A DNA stretch of 64,000 bases from Chrysomallon squamiferum (lineage: Eukaryota > Animalia > Mollusca): assembly GCA_012295275.1 (NCBI GenBank), contig CM022671.1:4836001-4900000 (forward strand). Reading direction: 5' to 3'. A model generated the notes under the pieces. That model saw only the letters and a list, made by a program, of their open reading frames with translations, had not been told where the DNA came from and searched no databases. Position numbers and translations under genes: made by a program. Below are positions 8,469-44,970 of the stretch, piece after piece (position 1 is the stretch's first letter; each line of letters begins with the position of its first letter).

Positions 8469-8943
8469 ATGAACACAGCTACCGCTAACAGAACCAGCGC
8501 CCAGAAATCAAAAGTAACCTTGTCTGTTGGTGGGACGATATTTGTGACGGAGGCAGCGACGTTGAAACGCCATCCTGGAACAGTTCTGGCGTCGCTGCAC
8601 AGAGGTTCCGAGTACTACGATTCGCAAACGGACAGTTACGTTTTCGACCGAGGATCCGCAAGCTTTTTCTGTTATTCTTAATTTCTACCGCACTTCCGAG
8701 CTGCACCTGCCCAAAGGCATCTGCGGAAAGGCGATGAGAAACGAGCTGAGGTTTTGGAACATCTCTGAACTGAACATTTCTCAGTGCTGTTGGAAGGTGA
8801 TGTACGACGTCGACAAAGACGAAGACGTCTACAACACCCTGAAGCAGAGTCTAGATACCGGACACGATTTCACCGGCAACGAGAGTTTGAGGCATCGTCT
8901 GTATATGTTTCTAGAAAAACCTAATTCTTCAAGCGCTGCTAGG
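8469..8943 (+). CDS. Kv-A exon 1: Shaw/Kv3-like voltage-gated K+ channel T1 (BTB) domain, with a +1 frameshift at ~8652
   Basis: VTLSVGGTIFVTEAATLKRHPGTVLA...YVFDR / DPQAFSVILNFYRTSELHLPKGICGKAMRNELRFWNISELNISQCCW (HX5CX20CC)...FLEKPNSSSAAR, then donor GTGAGT at 8944. Upstream in-frame ATGs at 8376 and 8433 are alternative starts. One extra base in GAC CGA G GAT CCG breaks the frame. Confidence 0.88.
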
Positions 8944-9915
8944 GTGAGTAGTGATATAATCAAATCTCTCTCTCTCTCTCTCTCTCTCTCTCTCTCTCTC
9001 TCTCTCTCTCCAGTGATAACAATAATAAAAAGGTATCTTTTTAATTAACATACTTTCTGTCTCGTTTTACTTTTCTTTTCTCTTCTTCCTTTTTCTTTTT
9101 CTTTGTTCGATTTATTTATTTATATATTTTTTATAACCATTCATAAGTAAAAAGAACAACTGAATAAAATATTTATCAAGAAGATAGAGGCTGCCTGGAT
9201 TTTCAGTGTCAATGTATTGCATTCTTATTATTTATTTAATTAAAAAATAAAAAGAAGAAAACATTTATATCTTGATTTTTTTTTTCATTTATTTATAGTT
9301 ATCTAATTTAATTTATTTTTATTTTATTTTATTTTATTTTATTTTATTTTATTTTTTTTTATTTTATTTGTTTCTTTGTTTGTTTGTATGTTTACGTTTG
9401 TAATTTTATTTCGTTTTATTTTTTCATTCATGTTCTCTGGTTTGTCTATTTTATATTTTATAAATATTTTTTTAAATTTTATTTTATTATTATTATTATT
9501 ATTATTATTATTATTATTATTATTATTATTATTATTATTATTATATGTTTATACTGTCTATCTAGGGGAAAAAAATAATTTAAATAAAACTATCATAAAT
9601 ATCAAAAGCATTGTTGTTCTTCTTATTTTTGTTGTTGTTGTTATTATTAATATTATCATTATAATTGTCGTTAATGTTGTTTTTATTGTTGTTAATATTA
9701 TGATTATTATTGTTGTTCTTGTTGTTAATATTATAACTGTTTTTTTGTTTTTCTTGTTGTTATTATTGTTGTTGTTGTAGTTGTTATTAATATTATTATC
9801 GTTTTTGTTGTTGTTGTTGTTATTATTGTTATTGTTGTAGTTGTAGTTGTTATTAATATCATTATTATTGTTGTTGTTGTAGTTGTTATCATCATTACTA
9901 TTACTATTAACACAG

Positions 9916-10773
9916 ATATGGAACACGACACTAATGGTGCTGATCTTCCTCTCCGCGTTCTCGCTGGCGATATCCACTCTGCAAGAACTGCGAGTCCGGC
10001 TCACGTTTCCCGAGCCGGAAAACACGCAAGTGGAGAATCTCCTGAAGAACAGCACGCGCCTCAAATACAACCTGCACGTCTACTACTACGTCACGGAATG
10101 GCTGTACGCCTTCGACCACATCCTCTTGGCGATCTTCACTCTGGAGGTCTCCTTGCGCCTCGCCGTAGCCTTCGACAAACGCACCTTCTTCTCCTGCTTC
10201 ATCAACTGGGTGGACATGGTGACGTCGTACGGAGGGTGGATCGTCTTCGCGCTCGAGATGGCCTACTACAACGGCCTCATCGTGCGCACGGAGCCGCTGT
10301 TCTGGATGTACTTCGGCTTTCGCTGCGTGATGGTGACGCGTCTGCTGAGGTGCTTGCGGCTCCAGGAGAGGTTTCCGAGCCTGAAGATCCTGCTGATAAC
10401 GGTCAAGAAGAGCTGGATGGAGCTCGTTCTCCTCGTCCTCTGCTTCATCATCCTCTCGATGCTCTTCGGCACCATCGAGTACTACTGCGAGTTTCAAAAC
10501 AACAAGTTCGACTCCATTCCCATTTCAATATGGTGGTCCATCGTCACCATGACGACCGTGGGCTACGGGGACTACTACCCGGAGTCCATCTGCGGCTACT
10601 TCGTGGGGACGTTGTGCGCGATGTGCGGGATTCTCTTCCTCTCCATGCCCGTGGCTCTGATAGGGGCCACGTTCAACGACTACTACACGCGCAACCAGGA
10701 ACGAGAACTCCACAAGCACAACAGAGTGGACGGAAACACGACGAAGATTGCGCCGAAGTCGTTAAAGAGTTAA
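9916..10773 (+). CDS. Kv-A exon 2: S1-S6 transmembrane region, pore and short C-tail
   Basis: Acceptor CACAG (9911-9915), then IWNTTLMVLIFLS. S4 RCVMVTRLLRCLRLQER, pore SIPISIWWSIVTMTTVGYGDYYP, S6 MCGILFLSMPVALIGATF, TAA at 10771-10773. About 443 aa in total if the frameshift is corrected. Confidence 0.95.
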   Translation: MWNTTLMVLIFLSAFSLAISTLQELRVRLTFPEPENTQVENLLKNSTRLKYNLHVYYYVTEWLYAFDHILLAIFTLEVSLRLAVAFDKRTFFSCFINWVDMVTSYGGWIVFALEMAYYNGLIVRTEPLFWMYFGFRCVMVTRLLRCLRLQERFPSLKILLITVKKSWMELVLLVLCFIILSMLFGTIEYYCEFQNNKFDSIPISIWWSIVTMTTVGYGDYYPESICGYFVGTLCAMCGILFLSMPVALIGATFNDYYTRNQERELHKHNRVDGNTTKIAPKSLKS

Positions 10774-42909: not shown

Positions 42910-44028
42910 TTATTCCACTTCACCAATGTGTGTAATTTCTAGTTTTGATTCAGAATCCTTGATGTACTGATGCGAAGAGCTATCTCTGAGAGTAACGGTG
43001 GACTTGCTCTGAAGACTATGTCTACTTTTGCTTCTGGAAAGTCTGGAGTGTTGTTTGATGCTCTGTTTGGACTTCACGACTTCTGTGTCAATCACGACGT
43101 GTTTCTGTTCTGATTCAGATTTTTCCGGTTCCAGTGGGGAAATCGACGTAGGGCTGACCAGCAACCTAGCCGGGTTAGTGAAACATTCGCCGAAAAAATT
43201 CAGCGGAAAGATCGTGGTTTTGCACGCTATTTTCTTTTTCTTTAACGCAAGCTCCCTCTGCTGGTTTCGTTTATAATACTCGTTGAATGTAGCAGCTATC
43301 AAAGCTATGGGGATGGACAGAAAGATAACTCCGCACATTGCACACATAGTTCCAAATATATAACCGCAAGCCGTTTCGGGATAGAAGTCTCCATAACCAA
43401 CCGTTGTCATGGTTATGATGGACCAGTATATCGAAAGGGGAATGGTGTAAAATTTTCCATTGCTGTATTCACAGTAGTACTCGAGTGTACCGAAAATAGT
43501 TGACAAAATAAGAAAATACAAAAGTAACAAAATCAAATCCGCAGCACACTTCTGTATGGTAAGAAATATAATTTTTAACCCGTGGTATCGTTCTTGAAGA
43601 CGAAAAAGCCGCAGCAGTCGGAAGACCATTAAACAGTGGAGAATAAAATAAGACCAAAACACTCCACTTCGGCCGCTGTATTGGGGTCCTCTGAACCACA
43701 AATCAATAACAGATGTCCCCAAACCCGACGCGGTCGCTATCATGTCCACCCAGTTGAGAACGCTGAGGAAAAACCTTTTCTTTTTCTCGTGCACCAAAAA
43801 ACGAATGGTTATTTCAACGGTGAAGAAGATGACCATGATTTTCTCTATGATGAAGGGCTCGTCGAGGAGACGGTAGAAAGTGCGGTCCAATTTGGTGTTG
43901 TTGAAGTTCGATATGGCGGGATGGTCTTTGTCGAGCATTGTTTTCTTTGAATGCAAATCGGGCAACGAACTCAGTGTGAGAAGAAGTGATGACAGAAAAA
44001 CCACGGATAAATAGAAAGTATTCCAAAT
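42910..44028 (-). CDS. Kv-D exon 2: S1-S6, pore and extended Ser/Lys-rich C-tail
   Basis: Acceptor (T)nCTAG (AG at 44030-44029), then IWNTFYLSVVFLSS. S4 HCLMVFRLLRLFRLQER, pore TIPLSIYWSIITMTTVGYGDFYP, S6 MCGVIFLSIPIALIAATF, TAA ending at 42910. Confidence 0.95.
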   Translation of the reverse strand: MWNTFYLSVVFLSSLLLTLSSLPDLHSKKTMLDKDHPAISNFNNTKLDRTFYRLLDEPFIIEKIMVIFFTVEITIRFLVHEKKKRFFLSVLNWVDMIATASGLGTSVIDLWFRGPQYSGRSGVFWSYFILHCLMVFRLLRLFRLQERYHGLKIIFLTIQKCAADLILLLLYFLILSTIFGTLEYYCEYSNGKFYTIPLSIYWSIITMTTVGYGDFYPETACGYIFGTMCAMCGVIFLSIPIALIAATFNEYYKRNQQRELALKKKKIACKTTIFPLNFFGECFTNPARLLVSPTSISPLEPEKSESEQKHVVIDTEVVKSKQSIKQHSRLSRSKSRHSLQSKSTVTLRDSSSHQYIKDSESKLEITHIGEVE

Positions 44029-44502
44029 CTAGAAAAAAAAAAAAAAAAAAGAAAATTCGTTATAGAATATGAATTCACACACACACAAACACACACACAC
44101 ACACACACACACACACACACACGTACACATGTACATATAGAAATATATATATATATACACATACACAGAGGTACGTATACTTACATGCACAGGCACACAT
44201 ACATATACACAGACACACACACACATATAAACACACACATAAATACATATATATGCATATAAACACACATAGATACACATATACATAGATACACATCAAT
44301 ACATATATACATGCAGAACACATACACACGAAAACACGCATGCACACAGAGACACACATATACACATAAAAACATACATACATGCATACTCACACGAACA
44401 AGCATACATAATCACATATATTTGTATACATCACAGAAAGAAATGACAATAATGGCTGATACGGATCTAAACAGAACTATATACCTATTTTGTTTAACCT
44501 AC

Positions 44503-44970
44503 CTTAGCTGCCTTACAAGAGTTAGGTTTTTCAAGAATAAGATAAAGTTTGTGACGAACGTAACATAAGCGATCAGTTTCATACTTCACAGGATGCTGTG
44601 TGGATTCAATTTGTACCGTCTGCTTCAGATTGTTGTAAAGAAATTCATCTTGGTCCACCTGGTGCATAACTCTCCAACAACATTCCGAAACGAGCGATTC
44701 GGATATCTGCCAAAACCGCAGTTCTGTTCTTATAGCATTTCCGCATATTCCCGCCGGCAGATGCAGTTCTGACGTGCGGTAGTAACTGAGAATGGACGGA
44801 AATACCTGTGGATCTCTGTCAAAAACAAATTCATCAGCCGTACTGTCGTAAAATTCCGATGTTTGATCAAGAGATGCCAGCAACGTATTTGGATGCGTCC
44901 TGAGAGTTTCTGGTCTCGTCGCGAAACGAATTCCTCCAACAACAATTTTAATCATCCGGTGTTGTGACAT
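44503..44970 (-). CDS. Kv-D exon 1: T1 domain
   Basis: MSQHRMIKIVVGGIRFATRPETLRTHPNTLLA...FVFDRDPQVFPSILSYYRTSELHLPAGICGNAIRTELRFWQISESLVSECCW...LEKPNSCKAAK. Donor GTAGGT at 44502. About 528 aa in total. Confidence 0.93.

What the first reader, a model, noticed from the sequence alone, without database searches (positions are those of the whole stretch)
8469..44970. Four-gene cluster of divergent Shaw/Kv3-like channel subunits with coordinated non-canonical gating: candidate lineage-specific regulatory or leak-channel family
Seen: four paralogs in 36.5 kb with identical two-exon structure, the non-Shaker HX5CX20CCW Zn motif, an S1-S2 N-glycosylation sequon (NST, NMT, NIT/NST, NNT) and a perfect TTVGYGD filter. 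All four also deviate in the S3 hinge (Pro replaced by S/T/G followed by G), the S4 charges, the S6 gate and the pore-flanking Cys residues. Established: regulatory (silent) Kv subunits arose by duplication plus S6-gate degeneration in vertebrate Kv5/6/8/9 and independently in cnidarian Shaker/Shal/Shaw families. Inference: this cluster is an independent expansion of subunits that tune a canonical Shaw channel as heteromers, or a set of weakly voltage-dependent background K+ channels.
Basis: partly seen in the sequence, partly recalled or inferred. Interest (0 to 1): 0.8.

Follow-up and report, generated by a model that had tools for sequence, protein, structure and literature searches.

The report
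Snail cluster of single-proline Shaw channels
Four neighbouring potassium-channel genes, likely from a snail, belong to an old, already catalogued but apparently untested mollusc-and-worm branch of the Shaw family, and their altered gate and assembly domain suggest that they likely build channels with their own kin rather than tuning ordinary Shaw or acting as leaks.

Summary
The four two-exon Kv genes and every listed motif are there. Gene 1 has one extra base in the assembly, absent from 4 of 4 runs laid; its coding variants are 33 synonymous to 1 non-synonymous. The cluster is not a species-specific expansion: genes 1, 2 and 3/4 each have a Gigantopelta orthologue, a four-gene clade is rejected (p-AU 1e-77), and they nest with Lottia 103410 of the lophotrochozoan Shaw expansion listed by Jegla et al. 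2012. Loss of the S3 proline, a low S4 charge count and the sequon are shared with ordinary protostome Shaw. The real deviations are the S6 gate (P-x-A-x-x-A/G, kept across molluscs), R6 to E/Q, a cysteine pair flanking the pore, and a rewritten T1 interface. A predicted cross-subunit Lys-Glu pair of Shaw is Glu with Asn/Arg/Thr here and would face Glu in Shaw. Most likely they assemble within their own clade into slow, high-threshold channels (0.45); silent partners of canonical Shaw (0.28) and background channels (0.17) remain open. Expression and function are untested.

The parts
8469..8943 (+). Gene 1, T1 exon (in-frame upstream ATGs at 8433 and 8376 also possible)
   Evidence: Pfam BTB_2 in two pieces; orthologue P0004 of Gigantopelta
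8651..8653 (+). One extra base in the assembly that shifts the frame of gene 1; likely assembly error
   Evidence: a one-base deletion against the window in contigs of 4 of 4 runs, X1, X2, X3, X7
9916..10773 (+). Gene 1, S1-S6 exon; S4 10321-10371, filter 10552-10572, gate PVALIG 10648-10665
   Evidence: 77% identical to P0004 over 286 aa
21005..21463 (+). Gene 2, T1 exon; Zn motif 21209-21295
23138..24040 (+). Gene 2, S1-S6 exon; filter 23804-23824, gate PIAVVA 23900-23917
   Evidence: model pLDDT 93.6, Kv fold; orthologue P0001
35672..36268 (-). Gene 3, T1 exon (the Met at 36118 would match the start of Gigantopelta P0122 better); Zn motif 35843-35929
34451..35308 (-). Gene 3, S1-S6 exon; filter 34655-34675, gate PIALIA 34562-34579
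   Evidence: 62% identical to P0122
44503..44970 (-). Gene 4, T1 exon; Zn motif 44677-44763; residues 5-112 predicted as a homotetramer
42910..44028 (-). Gene 4, S1-S6 exon with long C-tail; filter 43387-43407, gate PIALIA 43294-43311

Best explanation
These four genes encode subunits of an old lophotrochozoan offshoot of the Shaw (Kv3) family that likely assemble through their T1 domains with themselves or with other members of the same offshoot, not with canonical Shaw, and would give slowly opening, shallowly voltage-dependent K+ channels that open on strong depolarisation. Shown: gene structure, intact filter, Zn motif, purifying selection on gene 1, placement with Lottia 103410, a conserved P-x-A-x-x-small gate. 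Predicted: a T1 homotetramer, and contact between the residue two before the Zn His and the residue six after the first Zn Cys of the neighbour. Inferred: exclusion from Shaw tetramers by a Glu-Glu clash at that contact; high threshold and slow opening, from Shaker P475A and Drosophila Shaw; a disulfide between the two pore-flanking cysteines. Whether each subunit conducts alone or needs a clade partner (such as the T-V-P gate types) is open.
For: T1 of gene 4 folds as a homotetramer: score 0.83, best control 0.00, runs share at least 92% of contacts, pLDDT at least 86. The mark was reached by 21 of 30 solved pairs and 0 of 23 single chains; on eukaryotes by 17 of 29 (animals 7 of 16) and 0 of 30, but by only 1 of 7 with no older relative; four copies are unlike the calibration and T1 tetramers are solved, so this may be memory. 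The model puts residue 68 against 78, 79 and 82 of the neighbour. That pair is basic-acidic in 67 of 69 canonical protostome Shaw rows; all four window genes have Glu at the first site and Asn, Arg, Asn, Thr at the second. In the wider clade only 7 of 153 rows with an acid at the first site have one at the second, against 27 of 59 without (rows share ancestry), as expected for contact among kin. At 36 predicted interface positions the genes match gastropod Shaw at 14-17, fewer than Kv2 does (21); four rows that group as cnidarian Shaw (two unnamed) and have altered gates keep 28-30. 203 of 212 clade rows do not show both gate prolines (2 are alignment gaps), so clade-only channels must mostly use single-proline gates. 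The gate is conserved, not scattered: P1 59, Ala at P3 55, A/S/G at V6 58 of 60 rows. Single-proline gates can conduct: Shaker P475A opened at V1/2 +74 mV against -27 mV, and the same change in Shaw2 gave current (PMC4663795). Drosophila Shaw, with a similar charge count, is shallow and right-shifted (PMC2217113).
Against: No electrophysiology or co-assembly data were found for this branch. Kv5.1, a proven partner of Kv2, matches Kv2 at only 11 of the same 36 positions and 39% over T1, so low T1 identity does not exclude co-assembly. Loss of a gate proline marks 42 of 43 known regulatory subunits (PMC6279357), and one study found Shaker P475A non-conducting up to +200 mV (PMC2233862). The contact comes from one predicted model, and one like-charge pair may be tolerated. 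Expression is unknown. The threshold is extrapolated from single mutants in other backgrounds; the small residue at V6 and other changes could offset it.
Confidence: 0.45

Rival explanations
1. Classical silent (regulatory) subunits: unable to work alone, each enters a tetramer with canonical Shaw (about 3:1) and shifts its gating; a further, old origin of the phenotype in lophotrochozoans.
For: Loss of P3 and change of V6 parallel the Kv6-9 group, where P3 is lost in 9 of 9 (PMC6279357). All 27 homotetramer-forming subunits of that paper were used for its PVPVIV logo, and 66 of 69 Shaw rows here have PVPVIV. Shaker P475A was non-conducting in one study. Long branches fit relaxed constraint. 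A Shaw-type pore sequence is present in runs of the same organism (loose ends). Kv5.1 shows that a very divergent T1 can still pair.
Against: Predicted Glu-Glu clash with gastropod Shaw, and within-molecule covariation of that pair; Kv5.1 has no such clash because vertebrate Kv2 has Gln there. Cnidarian-type Shaw rows with altered gates keep the Shaw interface. The T1 is predicted self-compatible, whereas regulatory T1s are self-incompatible. The changes are to small apolar residues, not the polar or aromatic ones typical of Kv6-9.
Confidence: 0.28
2. Self-assembling, low-threshold or weakly voltage-dependent background K+ channels that set resting potential.
For: R2 is neutral in all four and R1 in genes 3 and 4; V6 is small (Shaker V478A shifts activation about 11 mV negative). 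Aplysia aKv5.1 is cited as a non-inactivating Shaker-family channel contributing to resting potential (title and one sentence in PMC2229393); that it may belong to this expansion is my guess, untested. A flatworm Kv3 has atypical gating (PMC2443804).
Against: Constitutive opening in Shaker comes from P475D; P475A closes or right-shifts it. R3, R4, K5 and the S2/S3 counter-charges are kept in all four. Charge content did not predict slope in S4 chimeras.
Confidence: 0.17
3. Non-canonical role: gating-pore current through the voltage sensor, or a non-conducting membrane protein.
For: Notoplana Kv3.2 conducts through its sensor with His at R1 and Gly at R3; gene 4 has His and gene 3 Gln at R1, both with neutral R2.
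Against: R3 is Arg in 13 of 13 rows of the gastropod subclade and the filter is intact; genes 1 and 2 keep Arg at R1.
Confidence: 0.06
4. Decaying duplicates without function.
For: Frameshift in gene 1 as assembled; genes 2-4 were not checked against reads.
Against: The extra base is absent in 4 of 4 runs; 33 synonymous to 1 non-synonymous variant in gene 1; orthologues kept in Gigantopelta at 53-78% identity; open frames in genes 2-4; dN 0.36-0.64 against dS of 1.3 or saturated.
Confidence: 0.03

Closest known systems
Lophotrochozoan Shaw expansion, group M of Jegla et al. 2012 (PMC3519636; Lottia 13, Capitella 9 Shaw genes)
   Same: Lottia 103410 (P0009) is listed among the Lottia and Capitella labels of group M in Fig. 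S2 (text layer only) and is sister to the set holding the window genes (99/96).
   Different: In the sections I read the paper counts the genes and does not describe their gate, T1 or function. The window adds four gastropod members with a pore-flanking cysteine pair.
Canonical protostome Shaw (Drosophila Shaw; Haliotis P0132)
   Same: T1 with Zn motif, no S3 proline (Ser in 68 of 69), four basic residues among R1-R6 (67 of 69), S1-S2 sequon (66 of 69), TTVGYGD.
   Different: Gate PVPVIV against P-x-A-x-x-A/G; T1 only 40-43% identical; charges at R3-R6 against R1/R3/R4/K5 with E/Q at R6; Lys-Glu T1 pair replaced.
Vertebrate silent subunits Kv5.1, Kv6, Kv8, Kv9
   Same: Altered S6 gate with loss or shift of a proline; strongly diverged T1.
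   Different: They derive from Kv2; polar or aromatic substitutions are typical; their T1 is self-incompatible. Here the best tree places the genes with Shaw and the T1 is predicted to self-assemble.
Cnidarian Shaw regulatory subunits (PMC9989356, PMC6279357)
   Same: Shaw family; second gate proline lost in the cnidarian-type rows here (P-I/V-S-V/I-I-G).
   Different: Those rows keep 60-68% T1 identity to gastropod Shaw against 40-43% here. Separate in the best tree, but a joint clade is not rejected (p-AU 0.09).
Aplysia aKv5.1 (Zhao et al. 1994)
   Same: Molluscan Shaker-family channel reported as a new class (title and one sentence seen in PMC2229393).
   Different: Paper not held; no row labelled aKv5.1 appeared; membership in this clade not tested.
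Kir2.1 Cys122-Cys154 outer-pore disulfide
   Same: Two cysteines flank the filter on the outer face; the second lies 8 residues after GYG here, as I recall for Kir2.1 Cys154.
   Different: Unrelated channel family; the bond here is inferred from co-occurrence only. Kir source seen as search listing and abstract start (10.1101/2023.06.07.544151).

Membership tests
Shaker-like Kv (T1 + 6TM) | N-terminal T1/BTB domain, six-helix core, TxxTxGYG filter | tested here: met
   Pfam above cut-off for all four; model matches Kv1.2-2.1, Kv2.1 and Kv3.1 folds, TM 0.69-0.72
Shaw (Kv3) subfamily | Non-Shaker T1 zinc motif HX5CX20CC | tested here: met
   4 of 4; shared with Kv2 and Kv4, so not diagnostic of Shaw
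Shaw (Kv3) subfamily | Groups with Shaw in a phylogeny | tested here: inconclusive
   Best tree 97/95 (no Kv4 rows); published tree agrees. AU on 24 rows does not reject placement with Kv2 (p 0.17) or Shaker (p 0.18). Best PDB hit is Shaw for T1 by a small margin but Kv1.3 for the core
Shaw (Kv3) subfamily | T1-based co-assembly with Shaw alpha-subunits | not testable with these tools
   Indirect: 7-11 of 25 Shaw-diagnostic T1 positions kept; predicted like-charge clash
Canonical Shaw alpha-subunit | PVPVIV gate | tested here: not met
   PVALIG, PIAVVA, PIALIA, PIALIA
Lophotrochozoan Shaw expansion (group M) | Clade with Lottia 103410 and other Lottia/Capitella paralogues, apart from canonical Shaw | tested here: met
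   With Lottia 103410 99/96; whole expansion 96/93; union of this branch with protostome Shaw rejected, p-AU 0.0009
Regulatory (silent) Kv subunit | Atypical S6 gate substitutions | tested here: met
   P3 to Ala and V6 to Ala/Gly in 4 of 4
Regulatory (silent) Kv subunit | T1 self-incompatibility | tested here: inconclusive
   Gene 4 T1 predicted as a homotetramer, 0.83 against 0.00, possibly from memory of solved T1 rings
Regulatory (silent) Kv subunit | No current alone; altered currents with an alpha-subunit | not testable with these tools
   Needs heterologous expression
Background/leak channel | Open at resting voltage | not testable with these tools
   Sensor core charges kept; P475A precedent points the other way
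Species-specific expansion | The four genes form one clade | tested here: not met
   p-AU 9.8e-78; only the gene 3/4 pair may be recent (100/71)

The most novel reading that the evidence does not exclude
Molluscs and their relatives carry a fifth, independently assembling Kv subfamily, derived from Shaw, whose T1 no longer pairs with Shaw and whose working gate has a single proline (P-x-A in this branch, T-V-P in others). That would break both the four-subfamily assembly rule and the rule that a degenerate gate marks a silent subunit. One gastropod branch would have added a Kir-like outer-pore disulfide.
Probability: 0.3. Interest if true: 0.75.

Novelty: new variant of a known kind. Interest (0 to 1): 0.45.

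Why it matters
Molluscan neurons are classic preparations for K+ currents, yet about eight to eleven of the 13 Lottia Shaw genes belong to an expansion for which my searches found no functional study. The gate and T1 patterns give a cheap test of two general rules: that Kv subunits sort into four assembly groups, and that loss of a PxP proline means a silent subunit. Either outcome is useful: another independent origin of regulatory subunits, or a natural functional single-proline gate. The cluster itself is an ordinary old tandem set and not unique to this genome.

Tried and rejected
No whole genome is held for this window, so canonical Shaw and further paralogues of this organism could not be collected, and Gigantopelta synteny rests only on three orthologues sharing a contig length of 96,789,575. 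No RNA holder listed among 11 runs; this is no evidence on expression. Genes 2-4 were not checked against reads. Accession numbers and taxa of unnamed rows could not be looked up. aKv5.1: one paper mentions it, the original is not held, a profile search listed no row so labelled among its best 120, and a last search found 0 papers. The structure tool returns no coordinates, so the cysteine distance was not measured. A first idea that the T1 swap involved the residue five after the Zn Cys was dropped when the model placed residue six, not five, at the interface. The ESM Atlas gave only generic Kv clusters. Rejected: pseudogene reading of gene 1; S3 proline, S4 charge number and sequon as special traits; species-specific expansion. 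No tRNA genes; a bacterial promoter scan was irrelevant. dS between paralogues is at or near saturation, so dN/dS by domain was not pursued.
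Full report
Observation. The window is AT-rich animal DNA (GC 22-43% per 2 kb; about 13,000 of 64,000 bases in short tandem repeats). It holds four Kv genes, each with a T1 exon and an S1-S6 exon joined by a phase-0 GT-AG intron at the same place: gene 1 8469-8943/9916-10773 (+), gene 2 21005-21463/23138-24040 (+), gene 3 36268-35672/35308-34451 (-), gene 4 44970-44503/44028-42910 (-). 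All pass Pfam cut-offs. No fifth Kv gene was found with 7 queries.

Gene 1 has a +1 frameshift at 8651-8653 in the assembly. Contigs of 4 of 4 runs laid (three studies) lack that base. Of 40 variant rows shown (14 more not shown), 34 are coding: 33 synonymous, 1 non-synonymous, pN/pS about 0.009. Genes 2-4 have open frames but were not checked against reads. Expression is unknown.

Relatives. The best hits are gastropod proteins, led by Gigantopelta aegis, so the host is likely a related snail (inference). A careful tree of 51 rows and 405 columns, without Kv4, pairs gene 1 with P0004 (78% identity), gene 2 with P0001 and genes 3/4 with P0122, all at 100/99 or better. These sit with Haliotis rows and Lottia 103410 (99/96), inside a 24-row mollusc branch (98/88), inside a 36-row expansion with Owenia, Lingula and Lineus rows (96/93), sister to canonical Shaw/Kv3 (97/95). 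A clade of the four window genes is rejected (p-AU 9.8e-78, 20 rows). On 24 rows, joining the branch to protostome Shaw is rejected (p 0.0009; whole expansion p 0.02), but positions next to Kv2 (0.17), Shaker (0.18) or cnidarian Shaw (0.09) are not. Shaw membership is therefore favoured, not proven. By sequence the T1 is nearest to Shaw 3KVT by a small margin and the core nearest to Kv1.3.

Prior record. Jegla et al. 2012 (PMC3519636; passages, sections 16 and 18, text layer of Fig. S2, parts 9-10 of Table S1, cells cut) count 13 Shaw genes in Lottia and 9 in Capitella, label a lophotrochozoan expansion M, list 103410 among its labels, and say of the Shaker expansions in lophotrochozoans that function was not examined. 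Six searches aimed at molluscan or lophotrochozoan Shaw function returned no functional study of this branch; subscription journals and most supplements are outside the library. Two earlier AI notes on mussel genes reached a similar reading; they are not independent evidence.

Which traits are special. Counts use 348 of 458 rows (over 80% coverage, GYG filter); rows include isoforms and close orthologues, and in that fast tree the node of the whole expansion had low support (0.42; 1.0 in the 140-row tree). Canonical protostome Shaw already lacks the S3 proline (Ser 68 of 69), has four basic residues among R1-R6 (67 of 69) and an S1-S2 sequon (66 of 69). The window genes have 4, 4, 3 and 3 such charges and keep R3, R4, K5 and the S2/S3 acids. 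Real deviations are three. The gate: Ala at P3 in 55 and A/S/G at V6 in 58 of 60 rows of the mollusc branch, against PVPVIV in 66 of 69 Shaw rows; 203 of 212 rows of the expansion do not show both prolines. R6 is E/Q/D in 13 of 13 rows of the gastropod subclade. Cysteines at the S5 end and 8 after GYG occur together in 10 of those 13 rows; among 455 rows, 12 have both, 6 the first only, 2 the second only. This is a single origin, so a disulfide is only a hypothesis; Kir2.1 has an outer-pore bond (abstract start; spacing recalled).

What the gate implies. Unusual gates mark 42 of 43 regulatory subunits (PMC6279357; passages and section 14; PMC9989356, passages and section 7). Shaker P475A, the same change, was non-conducting in one study, and V478A shifted activation from -30.5 to -41.9 mV (PMC2233862, passages with Table I). 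In another, P475A opened at +74 mV against -27 mV, slowly, and the equivalent Shaw2 mutant carried current (PMC4663795, passages with Table 1). Drosophila Shaw is shallow and right-shifted, and charge content did not predict slope (PMC2217113, passages). So the gate argues for silent or high-threshold subunits and against a leak.

What the T1 implies. T1 identity to gastropod Shaw is 40-43%, to Kv2/Shab 33-44%; four cnidarian-type Shaw rows with altered gates keep 60-68%; Kv5.1 keeps only 39% to its partner Kv2. Four copies of gene 4 T1 fold as a ring: score 0.83, best of 3 controls 0.00, at least 92% shared contacts, pLDDT at least 86. The mark was reached by 21 of 30 solved pairs and 0 of 23 single chains; on eukaryotes by 17 of 29 and 0 of 30, but by 1 of 7 without an older relative, and the calibration used two copies, so the pass may reflect solved T1 rings. 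The model places Glu68 (two before the Zn His) against residues 78, 79 and 82 of the neighbour. In Shaw that pair is basic-acidic in 67 of 69 rows. The window genes have Glu with Asn, Arg, Asn, Thr. Across the expansion acid-acid pairs are avoided (7 of 153 against 27 of 59; 0 of 41 in the mollusc branch; rows not independent). In a mixed ring the window Glu would face the Shaw Glu. At 36 interface positions the genes match Shaw at 14-17, Kv2 matches Shaw at 21, cnidarian-type rows at 28-30; against this, Kv5.1 matches Kv2 at 11.

Mechanism. Most likely (0.45) the subunits assemble within their own clade, as homomers or with relatives, into slow, shallow, depolarisation-activated K+ channels. 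Gene structure, selection, descent and residue patterns are shown; the ring and the contact are predicted; exclusion of Shaw, gating and the disulfide are inferred. Silent partnership with canonical Shaw (0.28) rests on the gate signature and the Kv5.1 precedent. Background channels (0.17) rest on neutral outer S4 positions and on aKv5.1 (two passages of PMC2229393; original not held, placement untested). A gating-pore role as in Notoplana Kv3.2 (PMC2443804, passages) is unlikely as R3 is kept. PMC12184066 (passages) confirms the intersubunit Zn site but did not name this pair in the passages seen.

Verdict. Real genes, correctly described, but old members of a catalogued expansion rather than a new lineage-specific family. 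The interest lies in the clade-wide single-proline gate and rewritten assembly surface, which are testable and which I did not find in print. New variant of a known kind; interest 0.45.

Noticed in passing
window:47846-48065 and about 47200-47350 (-): Exons of a secreted group III-type phospholipase A2 (Pfam Phospholip_A2_2, E 5e-18; a downstream cysteine-rich exon). A possible upstream exon near 52790-53003 has no Pfam match.
   Followed up: partly
window:4065-7118: Head-to-tail duplication of about 1.5 kb, 78 mismatches in 1,489 aligned bases and 9 gap runs; a real tandem copy or two haplotypes assembled in series.
   Followed up: partly
window:49836-50392: Imperfect palindrome, 74% identical to its own reverse complement, with a related piece at 49640-49803; possibly a MITE or fold-back element.
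   Followed up: no
window:55119-55328 (-): Broken frame that looks to me like the DNA-binding start of a Tigger/pogo transposase (recalled likeness; no Pfam match).
   Followed up: partly
window:18610-18991 and 28277-29243: Minisatellites with periods of 39 and about 48 bases.
   Followed up: no
window:10531-10584: Loose ends of contigs laid on the pore of gene 1 show other K+ channel genes of the same organism, one with a canonical Shaw-type pore sequence.
   Followed up: no
P0001, P0122 (Gigantopelta): The gene 2 orthologue has an altered filter and gate (TMMTIGYG, PLTVVS) and a truncated T1 in its annotation; the gene 3/4 orthologue has Gln for the Zn His.
   Followed up: no
P0131, P0136, P0147 and relatives: The other half of the expansion has lost the first gate proline instead (T/S-V-P): 133 of 212 rows.
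   Followed up: partly
window:9916-10770, 34454-35308: GC at third codon positions is 0.84-0.86 in the S1-S6 exons of genes 1 and 3 but 0.39-0.51 in gene 4, in a region of about 29% GC.
   Followed up: no
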